Origin: a virus
Lineage: Duplodnaviria > Heunggongvirae > Uroviricota > Caudoviricetes
IMG/VR virus record: IMGVR_UViG_2531839144_000010
Direction: 5' to 3' (one strand)
DNA length: 33,724 nucleotides
Shown: in pieces, positions 3,510 to 32,821 of the stretch
Numbering within the stretch: the stretch's first letter is position 1
Layout of the letters: every line of letters starts with the position of its first letter
Position numbers and translations under genes: made by a program
Notes under the pieces: model-generated
The model's input: only the letters and a program-made list of their open reading frames with translations
Told to the model about the DNA's origin: nothing
Database searches by the model: none

Positions 3510-5784
3510 AGCCTCCGGGCGTTTTGTCCCTCCTTCAGCATTTGTTGCAGGCACCGGTAAGGCGTTTACCGGTGCTTATGCATGGAACGCGCCACGCGAG
3601 GCCGTCGGGCGCGAAAGACCCCTTACACGTGACGAGATGCGTCAGGTGCAAGGTGTTTTATCCACGATTAACCGCCTGCCTTACTTTTTGCGCTCGCTGT
3701 TTACTTCACGCTATGACTACATCCGGCGCAATAAAAGCCCGGTACACGGGTTTTATTTCCTCACATCCACTTTTCAGCGTCGTTTATGGCCGCGCATTGA
3801 GCGTGTGAATCAGCGCCATGAAATGAACACCGACGCGTCGTTACTGTTTCTGGCAGAGCGTGACCACTATGCGCGCCTGCCGGGAATGAATGACAAGGAG
3901 CTGAAAAAGTTTGCTGCCCGTATCTCATCGCAGCTTTTCATGATGTATGGGGAACTCAGCGATGCCTGGGTGGATGCGCATGGCGAAAAAGAATCGCTGT
4001 TTACGGATGAGGCGCAGGCTCACCTCTATGGTCATGTTGCTGGCGCTGCACGTGCTTTCAATATTTCCCCTCTCTACTGGAAAAAATACCGTAAAGGGCA
4101 GATGACCACGAGGCAGGCATATTCTGCCATTGCCCGTCTGTTTAACGATGAGTGGTGGACTCATCAGCTTAAAGGCCAGCGTATGCGCTGGCATGAAGCG
4201 TTACTGATAGCTGTCGGGGAGGTCAATAAAGACCGTTCTCCTTATGCCAGTAAACACGCCATTCGTGATGTGCGTGCGCGCCGCCAGGCAAATCTGGAAT
4301 TTCTTAAATCGTGTGACCTTGAAAACAGGGAAACCGGCGAGCGCATCGACCTTATCAGTAAGGTGATGGGCAGTATTTCTAATCCTGAAATTCGCCGGAT
4401 GGAGCTGATGAACACCATTGCCGGTATTGAGCGTTACGCCGCCGCAGAGGGTGATGTGGGGATGTTTATCACGCTGACCGCGCCGTCAAAGTATCACCCG
4501 ACTCGTCAGGTCAGAAAAGGCGAAAGTAAAACCGTTCAGCTTAATCACGGCTGGAACGATGAGGCATTTAATCCAAAGGATGCGCAGCGTTATCTCTGCC
4601 GTATCTGGAGCCTGATGCGCACGGCATTCAAGGATAATGATTTACAGGTCTACGGTTTGCGAGTCGTCGAGCCACACCACGACGGAACGCCGCACTGGCA
4701 TATGATGCTTTTTTGTAATCCACGCCAGCGTAACCAGATTATCGAAATCATGCGTCGCTATGCGCTCAAAGAGGATGGCGACGAAAGAGGAGCCGCGCGA
4801 AACCGTTTTCAGGCAAAACACCTTAACCGGGGCGGTGCTGCGGGATATATCGCGAAATACATTTCAAAAAATATCGACGGCTATGCACTGGACGGTCAGC
4901 TCGATAACGATACCGGCAGACCGCTGAAAGATACTGCGGCGGCTGTTACCGCATGGGCGTCAACGTGGCGCATCCCGCAATTTAAAACGGTTGGCCTGCC
5001 GACAATGGGAGCTTACCGTGAGCTACGTAAATTGCCTCGCGGCGTCAGCATTGCTGATGAATTTGACGAACGCGTGGAGGCTGCACGCGCCGCCGCAGAC
5101 AGTGGCGATTTTGCGCTGTATATCAGCGCGCAGGGCGGGGCAAATGTCCCGCGCGATTGTCAGACTGTCAGGGTTGCCCGTAGTCCGTCGGATGAAGTTA
5201 ACGAGTACGAGGAAGAAGTCGAGAGAGTGGTCGGCATTTACGCGCCGCATCTCGGCGCGCGTCATATTCATATCACCAGAACGACGGACTGGCGCATTGT
5301 TCCGAAAGTGCCGGTCGTTGAGCCTTTGACTTTAAAAAGCGGCATCGCCGCGCCTCGGAGTCCTGTCAATAACTGTGGAAAACTCACCGGTGGTGATACT
5401 TCGTTACCGGCTCCCACACCTTCTGAGCACGCCGCAGCAGTGCTTAATCTGGTTGATGACGGTGTTATCGAATGGAATGACCCGGAGGTCGTGAGGACGC
5501 TCAGGGGGGCATTAAAACACGGCCTGAAAACACCAAATCGTCAGCAAAGAAACGGAAGCCCGTTAAAACCACATGAAATTGCACCGTCGGCCAGACTGAC
5601 CCGGTCGGAACGATTGCAGATTACCCGTATTCGCGTTGACCTCGCTCAGAACGGTATCAGGCCGCAGCGATGGGAGCTTGAGGCGCTGGCGTGTGGCGCG
5701 ACCGTAAATTATGACGGGAAAAAATTCACGTATCCGGTCGCTGATGAGTGGCCGGGATTCTCAACAGTAATGGAGTGGACATGA
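3499..5784 (+). CDS. A: Rolling-circle replication initiator A (HUH endonuclease), 761 aa
   Basis: HUH-like motif TPHWHMMLF and paired-tyrosine motif GYIAKYISKNIDGY; 761 aa from the ATG at 3499 matches P2 A length. The phage origin is expected inside this gene but I cannot place it. Confidence 0.85.
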   Translation: MAVKASGRFVPPSAFVAGTGKAFTGAYAWNAPREAVGRERPLTRDEMRQVQGVLSTINRLPYFLRSLFTSRYDYIRRNKSPVHGFYFLTSTFQRRLWPRIERVNQRHEMNTDASLLFLAERDHYARLPGMNDKELKKFAARISSQLFMMYGELSDAWVDAHGEKESLFTDEAQAHLYGHVAGAARAFNISPLYWKKYRKGQMTTRQAYSAIARLFNDEWWTHQLKGQRMRWHEALLIAVGEVNKDRSPYASKHAIRDVRARRQANLEFLKSCDLENRETGERIDLISKVMGSISNPEIRRMELMNTIAGIERYAAAEGDVGMFITLTAPSKYHPTRQVRKGESKTVQLNHGWNDEAFNPKDAQRYLCRIWSLMRTAFKDNDLQVYGLRVVEPHHDGTPHWHMMLFCNPRQRNQIIEIMRRYALKEDGDERGAARNRFQAKHLNRGGAAGYIAKYISKNIDGYALDGQLDNDTGRPLKDTAAAVTAWASTWRIPQFKTVGLPTMGAYRELRKLPRGVSIADEFDERVEAARAAADSGDFALYISAQGGANVPRDCQTVRVARSPSDEVNEYEEEVERVVGIYAPHLGARHIHITRTTDWRIVPKVPVVEPLTLKSGIAAPRSPVNNCGKLTGGDTSLPAPTPSEHAAAVLNLVDDGVIEWNDPEVVRTLRGALKHGLKTPNRQQRNGSPLKPHEIAPSARLTRSERLQITRIRVDLAQNGIRPQRWELEALACGATVNYDGKKFTYPVADEWPGFSTVMEWT

Positions 5785-6148: not shown

Positions 6149-6910
6149 TCAATTGAGTATCGATTTTCGTTCGAATATAACCATAACGCCAAGCGTCAAA
6201 TATAAGTCATCTATATGTGATTCGTATTCATATTGGTCAGCATCAGGAGATAGTAAATGCTCTGCTGCTGTAAAAACATCAATTGTAACAGATATATCAT
6301 CTGGAATTTCTTTATTTAATTCATATATGTATTTTTTATATTTGTTTTTTAATTTCCTTATCATGTCTTCCTTATGGTGGATTGTAGTGCAGTAATTTTT
6401 TTTAGTTGAATCATTGTATGAATGGAATAAACAGTTTAATGCTAGTTCAAGGCTTGAACTCCCCGTAGGACCTGTGTGTTTAAAGTATTCAAGATTTCTT
6501 CTTATGTCAGAAAATAAAAGTTTTTTACTGGGGTTGTTTCCTTTAACTTCTATTGCACATATAGGAGTCTCGAAAAATGATCTACTGTCCAATATGGCAA
6601 TATCGATTCTGCCTGGTCTTTTTGTATTTGCATTTTTTCTGATAATGTGTCTTGAGAATATATTGTTGGGGTCATGCCGTTTCGATAAAGGGACTGTTGC
6701 ATTAATGAATTTATTTGTATGGTATTCAAATATGATCTTGTAATCACCATGATGAAAAGATGTTATTTTAATCAAGGATTGACCTATAGATACGGTAGCT
6801 ACATATTCAGTGTTTATTTTTCCACCGGAACTGAAATCCATTAAATAAGTAGCTTTGGCTGACTTTTGCATTCCAGCTTTTACGGCTTTCAAAATCTCCA
6901 TGTTATTCAT
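6149..6910 (-). CDS. Tin-like cargo protein, 253 aa, with a possible PD-(D/E)xK-like motif
   Basis: AT-rich minus-strand ORF at the position of P2 tin, next to old; segment GRIDIAILD...ICAIEVKG has D...E-x-K spacing reminiscent of restriction-endonuclease-fold proteins. Assignment is positional; the motif is unverified. Confidence 0.5.
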   Translation of the reverse strand: MNNMEILKAVKAGMQKSAKATYLMDFSSGGKINTEYVATVSIGQSLIKITSFHHGDYKIIFEYHTNKFINATVPLSKRHDPNNIFSRHIIRKNANTKRPGRIDIAILDSRSFFETPICAIEVKGNNPSKKLLFSDIRRNLEYFKHTGPTGSSSLELALNCLFHSYNDSTKKNYCTTIHHKEDMIRKLKNKYKKYIYELNKEIPDDISVTIDVFTAAEHLLSPDADQYEYESHIDDLYLTLGVMVIFERKSILN

Positions 6911-7093: not shown

Positions 7094-8854
7094 TTAAATC
7101 CATTTAATGAAATCTTCCATTTCATCATATTTTTTTATTACTGCTCTAACATCTTTGCTTTCATCACATAAACAATCTAAAAGACTATCCCATTCAGTTT
7201 GTTTTTTACCAAATCCATAAACAGCTTCTATATCACCGGATTTCCATATATAGATTCCATTATCTTTCAATTTTTGATGGATTTCATGTATATGTTTTTG
7301 TGTTTTTTCATGATTACATATTTTGATGAAGTCTTTGCTTGAAATGCTTTTGAATGACTCAAAAGTAGTGACTTTTGTATTTAAATTAAGCTCGCCTGAG
7401 TTGATTGATTCAGTCAAAGCAGTCAAGAGATTATCACATTCAGTACTAAGTAAGTCTTTATGCTCTGTTAATAGGATGTTTGATAAGAAATCACAATCAG
7501 CTAGAATTCTTGTTCTTATACCAATGGCATTGATGATTTGTGACATCTTAAATAAACTACCCTTACCGTCAACGGCAACAATGCAGATTTTACTTGGGTT
7601 GAGTTCATGTCCGTTAATTTTTTTATAAAGTGCATATAGGACGTTTGTCTCTGTTTTTCCTTCAACAAGCAAAACTTCTTCTGAAAATAAGAAATATGAT
7701 GAATTTGATAGTGTGAATGCTGAGTGCAATTGCGGTGATGAAGACTTATATAATTCTTCGATTTTTTCAGATATGGTCTTCCTTGCTATGGTTCCATTAG
7801 AATCCTTACAAACCTGAATCGCATTTGCTGCGTGCTTTGCAGAAAGCATACTGGCTGAGTGAGTTGATATTATAACCTGATACCCTGATTCACTTAATGT
7901 GACAAGTGATTCTCTGACAGAATTAATAGCTGAAGGGTGTAAATATAACTCAGGTTCATCAATGAAAATTAAAGTATTTGATTTTTTTGATTCGCTGTTT
8001 TCTTTTTTTATTTCGGCCAGGTATTGAATTAATGCCATTTGAATGGAACGTTGTGTTCCGTGACCAAATCGGCTGATATCTCTCATTACTGGTTCATCTT
8101 CCCGAGACTCAAAAACTTTCAGGGTTCCGGATTTAAATATTTCATCTAATGTCGGTGTGGGAAAGTGTAACTTTACACTTACGTCAGGAAAAAATTGGTT
8201 TACTTTTTTATTTACACCCGAGTCTATTTTATTAAGGCTTTCTAATCTGTTCTCACCGTTGTGAGAAAGATATTTACCTATTTCTGATATATTTTTTGAG
8301 AATTTCTCTTCGTGCTCTTGCTTTATTTCAGAAACAATTGCGGAAAGTATCTTTCCTATTGTGGTCGTATTTTTACATTTTGTTGAGTCTTCGACGGCGT
8401 CAGACATTGCAGGGATATGAATTGGTTCCGGAAATATATTGGAAATTGCACCATCTATGCCGCCAGGGTTTTTCTTCCACGTGGTGCCATCATATACATC
8501 CAGACTTTTTTTGACTTTTCCTGTTTCCTTATTAAATTCCTGTCTTCTTGCAAAGGTAAGAGTCCCGTCAATTATAAACGGAGCTATTTTTTGTTGATTC
8601 TCTTCTGTTAACAAAGACAGAGTATCATCTGTTATACCTTGAATAACGCCTTCAACGGATACGGGGTGTGTAGGATCGTACACATCTGATTCTGAAATCA
8701 AAGAGCCATCTAACAGCCACTTAATTGCTAAGATGATATTTGATTTTCCTGCGTTATTATAACCAACTAAAGCAGTAAAGGGGCGCAAAATAGCCGATGT
8801 TGCCTTACAAGAACGAAAGTTGCTAATTGAAACTGAAGCAAGACGTACAGTCAT
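7094..8854 (-). CDS. old: OLD-family nuclease (ABC-type ATPase + TOPRIM), 586 aa
   Basis: Walker A GYNNAGKS near the N-terminus, Walker B-like LIFIDEPELYLH, H-loop-like ISTHS, then a C-terminal TOPRIM-like region (LLVEGKTE ... IVAVDGKG); size and position match P2 old; AT-rich relative to flanks. Confidence 0.85.
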   Translation of the reverse strand: MTVRLASVSISNFRSCKATSAILRPFTALVGYNNAGKSNIILAIKWLLDGSLISESDVYDPTHPVSVEGVIQGITDDTLSLLTEENQQKIAPFIIDGTLTFARRQEFNKETGKVKKSLDVYDGTTWKKNPGGIDGAISNIFPEPIHIPAMSDAVEDSTKCKNTTTIGKILSAIVSEIKQEHEEKFSKNISEIGKYLSHNGENRLESLNKIDSGVNKKVNQFFPDVSVKLHFPTPTLDEIFKSGTLKVFESREDEPVMRDISRFGHGTQRSIQMALIQYLAEIKKENSESKKSNTLIFIDEPELYLHPSAINSVRESLVTLSESGYQVIISTHSASMLSAKHAANAIQVCKDSNGTIARKTISEKIEELYKSSSPQLHSAFTLSNSSYFLFSEEVLLVEGKTETNVLYALYKKINGHELNPSKICIVAVDGKGSLFKMSQIINAIGIRTRILADCDFLSNILLTEHKDLLSTECDNLLTALTESINSGELNLNTKVTTFESFKSISSKDFIKICNHEKTQKHIHEIHQKLKDNGIYIWKSGDIEAVYGFGKKQTEWDSLLDCLCDESKDVRAVIKKYDEMEDFIKWI

Positions 8855-24123: not shown

Positions 24124-25149
24124 TCATTCAATAATGTCTGGTAGAACATTAAATCCAGTTGGTCGAAAAAAGGATAATCTTTGCTGATGAGAAACTAAAT
24201 CTATCTTCACAATGTGATGATGGTTTTTTTTGATTTTTCTAGAGTACAATGAGTAAAAAAGATTTTCTGTGTTAATTTCCACAATGATTCCAGACATATC
24301 TAAGTCATAGCATTTTGCTAACGCTTTCAATTTTGGTGATATTTTGCTCTCTTTAAACTTTTCATTATATTCCGGTTGAAAATATCTTATCAAAGCGGCT
24401 TCGATTATATTAATGGCTTGATTTTTGTTTGGGTGATTTTTTAATGCAAACTTAAATCGCTTGTCATCGCTATCCGTATCATCAATTAATCCAGACCTCC
24501 CATCTAGAGATGAGAATACTTGTTCATGCTCAAAGGCATACATAAAAAGCATGATCTCTTGATCTGGCTTGTTATAAAGCGTTTGCGCCAATATTTTTTG
24601 TAATTTTGAATGACTCCTTAAACGTTCAACTGCATTCCTGCTACCATTTTTACCTACGGCTTGTCCAATATAAAGAACTTCATATGAGGACAGATCTGAA
24701 TAGTAACCTAATTTGCTTGAATATAAGGTGGCAATGAAAGATGCAGAGATGTAAGTTACCTCCTCCCCTTCATTATTTATACTAATAACTTCTCTGAATG
24801 GATAGTTACATATTACATTAGTTGCATCGTCTTCTAATATCCAGTTGTATTCAAAATGGAACTTGCTTTCTTTACCATCTATTTTGTACCCTATCTCTCC
24901 TGAGAGAATGTTTTTCTCATGATTAATTGTATTATCAATAAAATAAAAGCTTGGGCGAGCGCATATAAAGTATATATGGCATTTTGAAAGTTGTTTTTCT
25001 TGTTCTAAATTAATTTTTGCATCAGACGTTAGTTGCTGAGCAGTAAGCATCGCTGTAAAACTATTTAAGTATCCAAAAGCAAATTCGTGTATGAATTTTC
25101 TTTTCACTCGAAATATCCTCACTAGAAATGAATAATATTGGTTTTTCAT
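24124..25149 (-). CDS. AT-rich cargo protein at the Z/fun position, 341 aa, unknown function
   Basis: Sole ORF in the AT-rich 1.7-kb island between G and FI, opposite in orientation to the late operons; contains G-Y-Y (148-150), Y-I-G (160-162), R176 and E207/E209 in GIY-YIG-like spacing. Start codon uncertain (weak ribosome-binding site; next Met at residue 34). Confidence 0.6.
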   Translation of the reverse strand: MKNQYYSFLVRIFRVKRKFIHEFAFGYLNSFTAMLTAQQLTSDAKINLEQEKQLSKCHIYFICARPSFYFIDNTINHEKNILSGEIGYKIDGKESKFHFEYNWILEDDATNVICNYPFREVISINNEGEEVTYISASFIATLYSSKLGYYSDLSSYEVLYIGQAVGKNGSRNAVERLRSHSKLQKILAQTLYNKPDQEIMLFMYAFEHEQVFSSLDGRSGLIDDTDSDDKRFKFALKNHPNKNQAINIIEAALIRYFQPEYNEKFKESKISPKLKALAKCYDLDMSGIIVEINTENLFYSLYSRKIKKNHHHIVKIDLVSHQQRLSFFRPTGFNVLPDIIE

Positions 25150-31862: not shown

Positions 31863-32081
31863 ATGTTTCATTGTCCTTTATGCCAGCATGCCGCACATGC
31901 GCGTACAAGCCGCTATATCACTGACACGACAAAAGAGCGTTATCACCAGTGCCAGAACGTGAATTGCAGCGCCACGTTCATCACTTATGAGTCGGTACAG
32001 CGATACATCGTGAAGCCGGGAGAAGTCCACGCCGTGAGGCCGCACCCGTTGCCGTCAGGGCAGCAAATTATGTGGATGTAA
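31863..32081 (+). CDS. ogr: Late-gene transcriptional activator Ogr (C4 zinc finger), 72 aa
   Basis: MFHCPLCQHAAHARTSRYITDTTKERYHQCQNVNCSATF... with a C-x2-C...C-x4-C zinc-binding motif; taking the ATG at 31863 gives 72 aa. Confidence 0.85.
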   Translation: MFHCPLCQHAAHARTSRYITDTTKERYHQCQNVNCSATFITYESVQRYIVKPGEVHAVRPHPLPSGQQIMWM

Positions 32082-32091
32082 TTACAAACAG

Positions 32092-32115
32092 AAAGCCCCG
32101 CAGTCGAGGGGCTTT
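32092..32115. terminator. Bidirectional rho-independent terminator shared by ogr (+) and the convergent 133-aa gene (-)
   Basis: AAAGCCCC-GCAGTCGA-GGGGCTTT hairpin with T-rich sequence on both sides (CAACTTTATTT on the plus strand). Confidence 0.65.
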
Positions 32116-32132
32116 CAACTTTATTTAGGAGC

Positions 32133-32534
32133 TTATTTCCCTGTGTAAAGACGTGTTTGGGATGAAAGTAACACTTGCCCCTGTTTAGGCGTCAACGAAC
32201 CTATTTCATTGCATGTTTTTAATGGTTCGAAAAAAACATAACCGATGGATTTATATTGATTAACTATGCTTATTTCTTTGATTTTTTTGAGATATGAAGC
32301 AGGCGTGTCTTTTGTCCAGACTGGTGTGCATACACCGGTCATAATCAGGTTGCTGTAGGCGTCAGGGGCGATTTCTTTGCCAGGAAGTACCACCGTAAGC
32401 GAGTTGTTTTTATTCGTGATTTCTAGGGGTTGCCATGGTTTAAGCTGCTTTTGAAGGGTTTTAATATCATTCGCGTTTGCGTTGAGCGAAATTATTAAGG
32501 TGGCTATTGCCATCACTGATTTAAGAGTTGCCAT
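32133..32534 (-). CDS. Secreted small protein of unknown function, 133 aa, signal peptide, two Cys
   Basis: N-terminal signal peptide MATLKSVMAIATLIISLNANA with an AxA cleavage motif; AT-rich codon usage unlike both phage backbone and fieF; bracketed by two similar hairpins. Confidence 0.6.
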   Translation of the reverse strand: MATLKSVMAIATLIISLNANANDIKTLQKQLKPWQPLEITNKNNSLTVVLPGKEIAPDAYSNLIMTGVCTPVWTKDTPASYLKKIKEISIVNQYKSIGYVFFEPLKTCNEIGSLTPKQGQVLLSSQTRLYTGK

Positions 32535-32594
32535 GGAAAATCCTTAATAAACATTTGGTTGAGTAAAATTCATACCTCCAAAAAAAGGAAAAAT

Positions 32595-32619
32595 AAAGCC
32601 CCATGTGCTTAGGGGCTTT
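32595..32619 (-). terminator. Hairpin plus T-tract on the minus strand, upstream of the 133-aa gene
   Basis: AAAGCCCC-ATGTGCTTA-GGGGCTTT; on the minus strand it is followed by ATTTTTCCTTTTTTT; the stem is identical to the hairpin at 32092-32115. Confidence 0.45.
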
Positions 32620-32713
32620 CAGTAGTCGATGTGGACGCTATGTGGACAGCGTTTGACATAAATCCATTTATATCATCAGGTTAGGTGCTTTTTTGTGACA
32701 CCATCCCTGTCTT

Positions 32714-32740
32714 CCCCCACATGATGTGGGGGTTTTTTTT
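32714..32740 (+). terminator. Rho-independent terminator of the host gene originally upstream of fieF
   Basis: CCCCCACA-TGA-TGTGGGGG followed by T8; no plus-strand gene precedes it within the window, consistent with a host terminator separated from its gene by the prophage. Confidence 0.55.
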
Positions 32741-32821
32741 ATCCTCAATTTGCCTGCTGCTTAATGCATTGCAGATGATTTGCTTCCGTTATACTACCGT
32801 CAGTTGATAGCGGGAGTATTT

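What the first reader, a model, noticed from the sequence alone, without database searches (positions are those of the whole stretch)
32082..32713. Third cargo locus near the right prophage end: a signal-peptide protein bracketed by twin hairpins
Between ogr and the host fieF upstream terminator lies an AT-rich 133-aa ORF (32133-32534, minus strand) with a clear signal peptide and two cysteines, so it is predicted to be periplasmic or secreted. It is flanked by two hairpins with identical 8-bp stems (AAAGCCCC/GGGGCTTT) at 32092-32115 and 32595-32619. In P2 the ogr-to-att interval is short as far as I recall, so this looks like an insulated moron. A secreted product expressed from a prophage suggests lysogenic conversion or superinfection exclusion at the envelope.
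Basis: partly seen in the sequence, partly recalled or inferred. Interest (0 to 1): 0.5.

Follow-up and report, generated by a model that had tools for sequence, protein, structure and literature searches.

The report
Exported-protein cargo gene in P2-like prophage
A small gene for a protein predicted to be exported to the cell envelope sits between two terminator hairpins at the right end of a P2-like prophage; it belongs to a catalogued phage family of unknown function, so it is a real but fairly ordinary accessory gene.

Summary
The ORF at 32133-32534 (-) is a real gene under purifying selection (dN/dS 0.08-0.19). It has a Sec-type signal peptide, and its two cysteines are conserved in 98-99% of 165 relatives. 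The two AAAGCCCC/GGGGCTTT hairpins occur only at the stated places; no shuffle of the window produced one.

The gene is phage-borne. The att core shared with the empty cpxP-fieF site and with Wphi attP starts at 32697. Sequenced P2-like phages (GMS190, P37, FSL SP-004) carry the same ogr-ORF-attP-int arrangement, and 5382 of 5426 complete E. coli genomes lack the gene. Compared with Wphi, and with a prophage at the same site that lacks the gene, the window has one extra 504-bp unit (hairpin plus gene).

The protein matches PHROG 3807 (unknown function). It has no Pfam, NCBIfam, PADLOC or solved-structure relative, and it is not homologous to the periplasmic exclusion protein Glo of phage K139. 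In 8 of 9 contexts retrieved for distant database homologues, and in the annotated Klebsiella and Burkholderia phages, the gene lies at the gpD/ogr end of a P2-like element, convergent with the tail genes.

I found no promoter. A role in superinfection exclusion or lysogenic conversion is plausible but untested. Verdict: a new member of a known kind, of modest interest.

The parts
31863..32081 (+). ogr, late-gene activator (72 aa); last conserved phage gene before the cassette
   Evidence: Pfam Ogr_Delta E 2e-21. Annotated ogrK at the equivalent position in E. coli A8. 98-99% identical to Wphi, P37 and GMS190.
32091..32116 (.). Left hairpin (9-bp stem GAAAGCCCC/GGGGCTTTC, 8-nt loop). Likely a bidirectional intrinsic terminator for the convergent ogr (+) and ORF (-). 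It corresponds to the single ogr terminator of Wphi.
   Evidence: Terminator-like on both strands. Folding energy -17.9 kcal/mol, z -4.2 and -3.2. In P37 and E. coli A8 its loop (TCAGTCGA) differs by one base from the Wphi ogr hairpin loop (TCAGTTGA); the window's own loop is GCAGTCGA. Termination itself was not measured.
32133..32534 (-). Cargo gene: 133-aa precursor. Predicted signal peptide is residues 1-21 (32472-32534). The mature protein is 112 aa, 12.6 kDa, pI 9.4, with C69 and C108.
   Evidence: PHROG 3807, E 1.1e-56, full length. dN/dS 0.19 and 0.08 against P37 and FSL SP-004. AlphaFold model pLDDT 85, pTM 0.76. Family signature L31 W34 P36 Y60 G67 C69 N92 G98 C108 T127.
32541..32545 (-). 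Ribosome-binding site AAGGA, 6 nt before the ATG
   Evidence: Read directly from the sequence. The block is conserved in P37 and FSL SP-004.
32577..32619 (-). Right hairpin (8-bp stem, 32595-32619) plus the T-run that follows it on the minus strand (TTTATTTTTCCTTTTTTT). Likely a leftward terminator. In the circular phage it would stop the C-int transcript before the cargo gene.
   Evidence: Terminator-like on the minus strand only. Folding energy -16.4 kcal/mol on the minus strand. Conserved with a different loop in P37 and FSL SP-004. The function is inferred.
32629..32647 (+). Two direct repeats ATGTGGAC, 11 bp apart: probable arm-type integrase binding sites of attP
   Evidence: Read from the sequence. 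100% conserved in Wphi, P37 and FSL SP-004, and a similar pair lies on the other arm of Wphi attP. Their identity as Int sites is inferred from my knowledge of P2 attP.
32697..32743 (+). 47-bp att core, which marks the right prophage boundary. It contains the cpxP terminator hairpin (32714-32732).
   Evidence: Identical in the window, Wphi attP, P37, FSL SP-004 and the empty cpxP-fieF site. Matches in prophage-free genomes start at 32697. Wphi1 prophage lies at cpxP-fieF in E. coli W (PMC3032704).
32823..33724 (+). Host gene fieF
   Evidence: Annotated as fieF in all matching E. coli genomes.

Best explanation
This is a phage-borne accessory cassette in the ogr-attP interval of a Wphi-type P2-like prophage integrated at cpxP-fieF.

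Anatomy (shown, about 0.9). One 504-bp unit is present here and absent from Wphi. It holds a single AT-rich gene convergent with ogr. The left hairpin is the old ogr terminator and now also ends the cargo gene. The right hairpin is a leftward terminator between the attP arm and the cargo gene.

Product (inferred from sequence, about 0.85). The precursor is exported by Sec and cleaved after residue 21. This gives a 112-aa basic alpha/beta periplasmic protein held by one disulfide (C69-C108). It belongs to PHROG 3807, a family of extracytoplasmic domains with no characterised member.

Role (inference, about 0.3). The protein is made in the lysogen and acts in the envelope for the benefit of the element. 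The most likely action is blocking a step of infection by other phages in the periplasm (superinfection exclusion).

Why the hairpins are twins (inference, about 0.5). The identical stems and the 504-bp spacing let the cassette be lost or swapped by recombination without losing either terminator. This fits the allele replacement seen between near-identical phage backbones.

The single confidence value of 0.5 is a compromise between the well-supported anatomy and export and the untested role.
For: Phage-borne:
- The att core is at 32697-32743, and the host match starts at 32697.
- The same ogr-ORF-attP-int order is found in phage genomes GMS190 (96% aa), P37 (69%) and FSL SP-004 (62%).
- The gene is absent from Wphi and from the prophage of E. 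coli IAL7254 at the same site.
- It is present in 44 of 5426 complete E. coli genomes, while 607 have the ogr-att-fieF junction.

Real gene:
- dN/dS is 0.19 and 0.08.
- 297 clusters at 50% identity match the family profile.
- There is a strongly conserved signature.

Exported:
- n-h-c signal peptide with A-x-A.
- The signal region has pLDDT below 50 and the rest is confident.
- Every homologue whose N-terminus I examined, including long fusion proteins, puts a signal peptide or a membrane anchor before the domain.
- The cysteine pair is 98-99% conserved.

Insulated: terminator-like hairpins on both sides. Twin hairpins with the same AAAGCCCC stem also flank the 45%-identical Citrobacter homologue at a different att site.

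Fixed position:
- 8 of 9 contexts retrieved for distant database homologues are the gpD/ogr end of P2-like prophages.
- The annotated Klebsiella phage and Burkholderia phage KS14 show the same position.

Allele swapping:
- dS of the ORF between the window and P37 is 0.99, against 0.095 for ogr and 0.084 for gpD.
- Identity drops sharply just after the left hairpin and recovers within the 5' part of the ORF.

Precedent for the proposed role: K139 Glo, a periplasmic exclusion protein of a P2-related phage encoded next to int/att (record annotation).
Against: - No sigma-70-like promoter was found upstream of the gene, so expression in the lysogen is unproven.
- One homologue sits on a small Rep/MobC plasmid-like contig, and distant relatives are domains of large envelope proteins. 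The domain is therefore not specific to phage-phage conflict.
- The high dS of the divergent block shows an old allele brought in by recombination, not fast adaptive change. The arms-race reading is therefore weak.
Confidence: 0.5

Rival explanations
1. The protein is a host-fitness (lysogenic conversion) factor unrelated to phages. For example, it could be a periplasmic immunity protein or inhibitor against cell-wall-targeting toxins (lysozymes, T6SS or colicin-type effectors), or a binder of an envelope glycan.
For: The protein is small, periplasmic and disulfide-bonded. Its conserved aromatic and polar residues (W34, Y60, N92, T127) are compatible with a ligand or glycan site. One distant relative is fused to a weak, below-threshold SH3_3 match (a bacterial SH3 domain). 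The family also occurs on a small plasmid-like contig. The mature-domain allele is swapped between backbones.
Against: No fold or sequence similarity to solved structures. From my own knowledge the PDB includes lysozyme inhibitors and T6SS immunity proteins. No toxin gene lies next to it in any context examined.
Confidence: 0.2
2. The protein serves the phage's own infection cycle rather than the lysogen. In the circular genome the gene lies directly downstream of C-int-attP in the same orientation. It could be expressed by read-through from Pc just after infection, and be separated from that promoter after integration.
For: Same orientation as int across attP. No promoter of its own was detected. 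Its position next to gpD/ogr is conserved across distant P2-like phages.
Against: The right hairpin with a long T-run is a good terminator in exactly that direction. The gene is dispensable: P2, Wphi and about 93% of prophages at this site lack it. In the Klebsiella-type phages it lies between D and ogr, not downstream of int.
Confidence: 0.15
3. The twin hairpins are the ends of a small mobile unit (recombination or transposition sites) and not only terminators. The cassette would move as hairpin-gene-hairpin.
For: The stems are identical. The extra DNA relative to Wphi is exactly one repeat unit of 504 bp. Near-identical 24-nt hairpins flank the Citrobacter homologue. The left mosaic breakpoint lies at the hairpin.
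Against: No transposase or recombinase is associated with the cassette. The Klebsiella and Pantoea copies do not show matching twin hairpins. The left hairpin is simply the terminator already present in phages without the cassette. Homologous exchange through the 97-100% identical ogr and attP flanks explains the mosaic equally well.
Confidence: 0.12
4. It is a host gene, or a decaying non-functional remnant.
For: None beyond its position near host DNA and the missing promoter.
Against: It is absent from empty sites and from 99% of complete E. coli genomes. It lies inside the att boundary. It is carried by sequenced phage genomes. It is intact and under purifying selection across genera.
Confidence: 0.02

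Closest known systems
PHROG 3807 (phage protein family, function unknown); members include Burkholderia phage KS14 gp9, Salmonella phage FSL SP-004 SP004_00135, Yersinia phage P37 QIW90038 and a Serratia phage KSP20 ORF
   Same: Full-length HMM match, E 1.1e-56. tblastn identity is 27-96%. The fold matches the BFVD model of the KSP20 protein (E 7e-11). The position next to gpD/ogr is the same.
   Different: Nothing of substance; this is a new allele. The best E. coli match is 97.7% at the DNA level. No member has a tested function, and the KS14 paper does not discuss gp9 of KS14.
Glo of Vibrio phage K139, a periplasmic phage-exclusion protein of a P2-related phage
   Same: A small (137 aa) signal-peptide protein encoded next to the int/att region of a Peduoviridae genome and annotated as involved in phage exclusion. 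It is the best functional analogy.
   Different: Not homologous: hhalign probability 7%, and only the signal peptides align. Glo sits in the cI-int lysogenic operon, on the other side of attP.
Classical morons and the P2 accessory loci (tin/old between gpA and gpQ; Z/fun in the tail region)
   Same: An extra gene that close relatives lack, with atypical GC, bounded by terminators and sitting between conserved genes. This prophage also carries Tin and Old.
   Different: The locus is different (ogr-attP). No promoter was recognised and no PADLOC match was found. The two papers on P2 defence hotspots that I searched never use the word 'ogr'. [quoted passage not shown]
Phage Wphi (and the Wphi1 prophage of E. 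coli W) at cpxP-fieF
   Same: Same 47-bp att core, same arm repeats and same ogr (98.6%). Same chromosomal site (PMC3032704).
   Different: Wphi has a single bidirectional hairpin and 111 bp between ogr and the core. The window has 615 bp with the cargo gene and a second hairpin.

Membership tests
PHROG 3807 | Significant full-length match to the family HMM | tested here: met
   E 1.1e-56, 191.7 bits, residues 1-133 on profile positions 1-135 of 135.
Moron (autonomous accessory gene in a phage genome) | Present between two conserved genes or sites, and absent at that place in close relatives | tested here: met
   504 bp extra relative to Wphi and the IAL7254 prophage, with flanks 96-100% identical.
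Moron (autonomous accessory gene in a phage genome) | Base composition unlike the surrounding genome | tested here: met
   GC 40% (cassette 38%) against 51% for the prophage.
Moron (autonomous accessory gene in a phage genome) | Own terminator | tested here: met
   Terminator-like hairpin 17 nt after the stop codon on the minus strand, plus a second one upstream. This is prediction only.
Moron (autonomous accessory gene in a phage genome) | Own promoter | tested here: inconclusive
   No site in the consensus scan, and none in a looser scan of the 60 bp between the right hairpin and the ATG. Scans of four homologous loci found a same-strand candidate directly upstream only in the Klebsiella locus (4923-4952), and it is weak.
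Moron (autonomous accessory gene in a phage genome) | Expressed from the repressed prophage | not testable with these tools
   Needs RNA-seq, 5' RACE or proteomics of a lysogen.
Sec-exported (signal peptidase I) periplasmic protein | N-terminal n-h-c signal peptide with an A-x-A cleavage motif and no lipobox | tested here: met
   MATLK / SVMAIATLIISL / NANA|ND; hydropathy peak 2.66; no Cys at +1. Equivalent N-termini in the complete homologue sequences I examined. No SignalP-type predictor was available.
Sec-exported (signal peptidase I) periplasmic protein | Demonstrated export and cleavage | not testable with these tools
   Needs PhoA or Bla fusions or fractionation.
K139 Glo-type periplasmic exclusion protein | Sequence or profile homology to Glo | tested here: not met
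   hhalign probability 7%, 15 aligned columns, all in the signal peptide.
Known anti-phage defence systems (PADLOC-DB) | Match to any defence-protein model | tested here: not met
   0 families at E up to 10.
Structurally characterised periplasmic inhibitors and exclusion proteins | Fold similarity to a solved structure | tested here: not met
DUF4431 (label UniRef gives to homologue P0111) | Match to the Pfam model | tested here: not met
   None of 49 family members, P0111 included, matches DUF4431 at E up to 1.

The most novel reading that the evidence does not exclude
PHROG 3807 may be a new-fold periplasmic factor that P2-like phages from Burkholderia to Escherichia keep at the gpD/ogr-att end. 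It would protect the lysogen against incoming phages (or other envelope attack) by a mechanism unlike any described exclusion protein. The twin-terminator architecture would then be a dedicated device that lets alleles of the mature domain be swapped or dropped between otherwise identical phages.
Probability: 0.2. Interest if true: 0.55.

Novelty: new member of a known kind. Interest (0 to 1): 0.3.

Why it matters
If the protein does act in the envelope, it would add a periplasmic function to the accessory repertoire of P2-like phages. Work on their cargo has focused on the gpA-gpQ and tail-region hotspots.

It would also give a function to a family with about 300 sequence clusters and no structural or functional relative.

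The twin-terminator layout is a small, clear example of how a cargo gene can be added to, or removed from, a tightly packed phage genome without disturbing termination of ogr or int.

As it stands, this is an uncharacterised accessory gene found in under 1% of complete E. coli genomes.

Tried and rejected
Family and structure searches:
- Pfam, NCBIfam and PADLOC scans of the protein and of 49 relatives gave nothing.
- Sequence and profile searches of the PDB gave only noise.
- BFVD returned only the protein's own family.
- The afdb50 library was not available.

Specific hypotheses rejected:
- Homology to K139 Glo.
- The 'DUF4431' label on one homologue was not reproducible.
- Host-gene origin.
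- An RNA gene in the interval: Rfam gave only sub-threshold hits.

Inconclusive or low yield:
- Promoter search by consensus scan and by a looser home-made scan found nothing usable.
- A GTDB genome scan with the family alignment failed for lack of a conserved stretch. With the closer alignment it gave only 2 loci, so contexts came from the look-up of encoding contigs instead.
- A literature search for the accession numbers and for the PHROG id returned no paper.
- attL could not be examined, because the window starts at the int stop codon.

Full report
**1. The observation**

- The ORF at 32133-32534 on the minus strand encodes 133 aa, with an ATG start and an AAGGA ribosome-binding site 6 nt upstream.
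- Its N-terminus is MATLK, then SVMAIATLIISL, then NANA|ND. That is a positive n-region, a hydrophobic core (Kyte-Doolittle peak 2.66) and an A-x-A cleavage motif. No cysteine follows the site, so it is not a lipoprotein.
- The predicted mature protein is 112 aa, 12.6 kDa, pI 9.4, with cysteines at 69 and 108.
- GC is 40% in the ORF against 51% for the prophage.
- The hairpins are at 32092-32115 (the stem is really 9 bp, 32091-32116) and at 32595-32619.
- The pattern AAAGCCCC-N3-12-GGGGCTTT occurs only at those two places in the window, and in none of 100 shuffles.
- Both hairpins fold as predicted, at -17.9 and -14 to -16.4 kcal/mol.

**2. Where the prophage ends**

I aligned four forms of this junction: the window; a prophage at the same site without the ORF (E. 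coli IAL7254); the ogr-int interval of phage Wphi; and an empty cpxP-fieF site.
- All four share a 47-bp core, GACACCATCCCTGTCTTCCCCCACATGATGTGGGGGTTTTTTTTATC, at 32697-32743.
- Matches in prophage-free genomes begin exactly at 32697.
- The core contains the hairpin at 32714-32732, which is the cpxP terminator. It is therefore not a 'fieF upstream terminator'.
- The E. coli W genome paper lists the Wphi1 prophage at cpxP-fieF (PMC3032704).
- The window starts at the int stop codon, so attL is not visible.
- Just right of the right hairpin lie two ATGTGGAC repeats (32629-32647). They are conserved in Wphi, P37 and FSL SP-004, and a similar pair lies on the other arm of Wphi attP. I read them as arm-type Int sites; this is an inference.

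The ORF therefore lies inside the phage, between ogr and the attP arm.

**3. The cassette is an indel**

- In Wphi the ogr stop is 111 bp from the core; here it is 615 bp. The difference, 504 bp, equals the spacing between the hairpins.
- Wphi and the cassette-less prophage have a single hairpin there (AGCCCC-tcagttga-GGGGCT), with an A-run before it and a T-run after it. That makes it a bidirectional terminator for ogr from the left and for int from the right.
- In the window this job is split between two hairpins.
  - The left hairpin keeps the ogr side. In P37 and E. coli A8 its loop is within one base of the Wphi loop. It is terminator-like on both strands, so it can also end the convergent cargo gene.
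  - The right hairpin is terminator-like only on the minus strand, with the tail TTTATTTTTCCTTTTTTT. In the circular phage it would stop the leftward C-int transcript before the cargo gene.
- Termination was predicted, not measured.

**4. The cassette is phage-borne and uncommon**

- Phage genomes GMS190 (96% aa), P37 (69%) and FSL SP-004 (62%) carry D-ogr-ORF-attP-int.
- Most P2-like phage records match only the ogr and att parts of the query.
- Among 5426 complete E. coli genomes, 44 carry the gene: 27 with an allele about 97% identical and 17 with an allele about 77% identical. It is always single-copy and chromosomal, and always annotated 'hypothetical protein'.
- 607 genomes have an ogr-att-fieF junction, so roughly 7% or fewer of the prophages at this site carry the cassette.

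**5. The gene is real, old and positionally conserved**

- dN/dS is 0.19 against P37 and 0.08 against FSL SP-004.
- The protein matches PHROG 3807 (unknown function) over its full length, E 1.1e-56.
- A word-indexed search found 115 relatives in Enterobacterales.
- A profile search of 1.84 billion cluster representatives found 297 clusters at E ≤ 1e-3 and 173 at E ≤ 1e-10. Most are 120-140 aa.
- Over 165 members the signature is L31, W34, P36, Y60, G67, C69, N92, G98, C108 and T127, with both cysteines at 98-99%.
- Nine long relatives were read in full. In eight the domain is C-terminal, after a signal peptide or membrane anchor and a long linker or repeat region; in the ninth (P0174) it follows the signal peptide directly. 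This supports an extracytoplasmic location.

Contexts of homologues:

| Locus | Arrangement |
|---|---|
| Klebsiella, Cronobacter | D, ORF, ogr, then host DNA (with tRNA-Met in the Klebsiella phage record) |
| Citrobacter, Pantoea, Pectobacterium | D, ogr, ORF, host |
| Metagenome contig (L023) | D, ORF, host; no ogr called in between |
| Dickeya | D, ogr, two further small genes, ORF, host |
| Burkholderia phage KS14 | D, then gp9 |
| One 3.5-kb contig (L022) | directly behind a plasmid replicase gene, with MobC/NikA downstream |

- In every phage or prophage context the gene is convergent with the tail genes.
- The gene is thus a recurrent occupant of one end of P2-like genomes, not a one-off insertion, and it is not wholly restricted to phages.

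**6. Structure and comparison with known proteins**

- AlphaFold2 with 49 sequences gave pLDDT 85 and pTM 0.76. Confidence is low only for residues 1-19, the signal peptide.
- The model is an alpha/beta domain: helix, two strands, long helix, short helix, two strands, two helices, one strand.
- Foldseek against the PDB found nothing below E 0.26.
- BFVD returned only the family itself.
- Pfam, NCBIfam and PADLOC gave nothing.
- The closest functional analogy I know is Glo of Vibrio phage K139, which the record annotates as a periplasmic protein involved in phage exclusion, encoded next to int. It is not homologous: hhalign probability 7%.

**7. Mosaic pattern**

- Between the window and P37, gpD, ogr and the attP arm are 97-98% identical. 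The ORF is about 77% identical at the DNA level.
- Synonymous divergence is 0.99 in the ORF, against 0.095 in ogr and 0.084 in gpD.
- Identity falls from 97-100% to 60-70% immediately after the left hairpin. It recovers gradually inside the 5' part of the ORF (about 32430-32520). The divergent block is therefore the part that encodes the mature domain.
- This is replacement by an old allele through recombination, not rapid adaptive change.
- Twin hairpins with the same AAAGCCCC stem, nearly identical to each other, also flank the 45%-identical Citrobacter homologue at another att site. FSL SP-004 and P37 keep both hairpins with different loops. The Klebsiella and Pantoea copies do not show matching twins.
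- My reading (inference): the second hairpin exists because both neighbours need a terminator. The shared stems also make precise loss of one 504-bp unit easy, and that would leave exactly the Wphi arrangement.

**8. What is not resolved**

- No sigma-70-like promoter is found in the 60 bp between the right hairpin and the ATG, either by the tool's scan or by a looser one.
- Among the homologous loci scanned, only the Klebsiella locus has a same-strand candidate directly upstream, and it is weak.
- Whether and when the gene is expressed is therefore open.
- Nothing here tests function.

**9. Best explanation and rivals**

| Claim | My estimate |
|---|---|
| Phage-borne, terminator-bounded accessory cassette | about 0.9 |
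| Product is Sec-exported and periplasmic | about 0.85 |
| It acts in the envelope against incoming phages | about 0.3 |
| Rival: host-fitness or immunity function unrelated to phages | about 0.2 |
| Rival: role in the phage's own cycle, via read-through from int | about 0.15 |
| Rival: the hairpins are mobility sites | about 0.12 |
| Rival: host gene or decaying remnant | about 0.02 |

The figures for the three functional readings (rows 3-5) are estimates, and none is tested; the host-gene rival is already refuted.

**10. Novelty and score**

- The family is catalogued as PHROG 3807, with unknown function.
- The class of locus is known. Morons and P2 hotspots are described (PMC9122126 and PMC13586616). 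[quoted passage not shown]
- I rate this a new member of a known kind, with interest 0.3.
- The interest lies in an uncharacterised, structurally unmatched periplasmic family with a fixed genomic address, and in the tidy twin-terminator layout.

Noticed in passing
window 32697-32743 (att core), with the empty site in L007 1177-1326: The 47-bp att core of this Wphi-type phage is the 3' end of the cpxP transcript, including its terminator. The cpxP 3' UTR yields the sRNA CpxQ (PMC4817254). The phage therefore integrates into the 3' end of an sRNA gene, as the P2-like prophages at cyaR and rybB do in the table of PMC3032704. attR carries a second, promoter-less copy of that 3' end just upstream of fieF. 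The exact overlap with CpxQ rests on my memory of its length of about 58 nt.
   Followed up: partly
window 6149-6910 (-) and 7094-8854 (-): The gpA-gpQ hotspot of this prophage carries the classical P2 pair Tin (E 8e-99) and Old (E 1e-214). The phage combines P2-type defence cargo with a Wphi-type integrase and att site.
   Followed up: partly
window 24124-25149 (-): A 341-aa minus-strand ORF lies at the Z/fun position, between the putative tail-fibre assembly gene and FI. Those gene identities are assumed from P2 gene order; I did not test them. The ORF has no Pfam or PADLOC match.
   Followed up: partly
L022 2266-2643 (3.5-kb contig PJEL010037021.1): A 125-aa member of the same family sits directly behind a plasmid replicase gene (PF03090), with MobC/NikA downstream. 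The family is therefore not confined to P2-like phages.
   Followed up: no
L009 5001-6138 (Dickeya prophage end): Here the homologue is followed by two more small genes, one with a faint DUF4177 match and one YidD-like, before ogr. The same slot can therefore hold a three-gene cargo block.
   Followed up: no
L013 4915-4938 and 5407-5432 (Citrobacter prophage): Nearly identical 24-26-nt hairpins, AAAGCCCCGCAATTGCGGGG(T/C)TTT, flank the 45%-identical homologue at a different att site. They mirror the twin hairpins of the window.
   Followed up: partly
proteins P0148, P0204, P0213, P0225, P0236 (distant relatives): The domain also occurs at the C-terminus of large envelope proteins. P0148 has pentapeptide repeats. 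P0204 has a weak, below-threshold SH3_3 match. P0213 and P0225 are membrane-anchored with long linkers. P0236 has two copies of the domain.
   Followed up: partly
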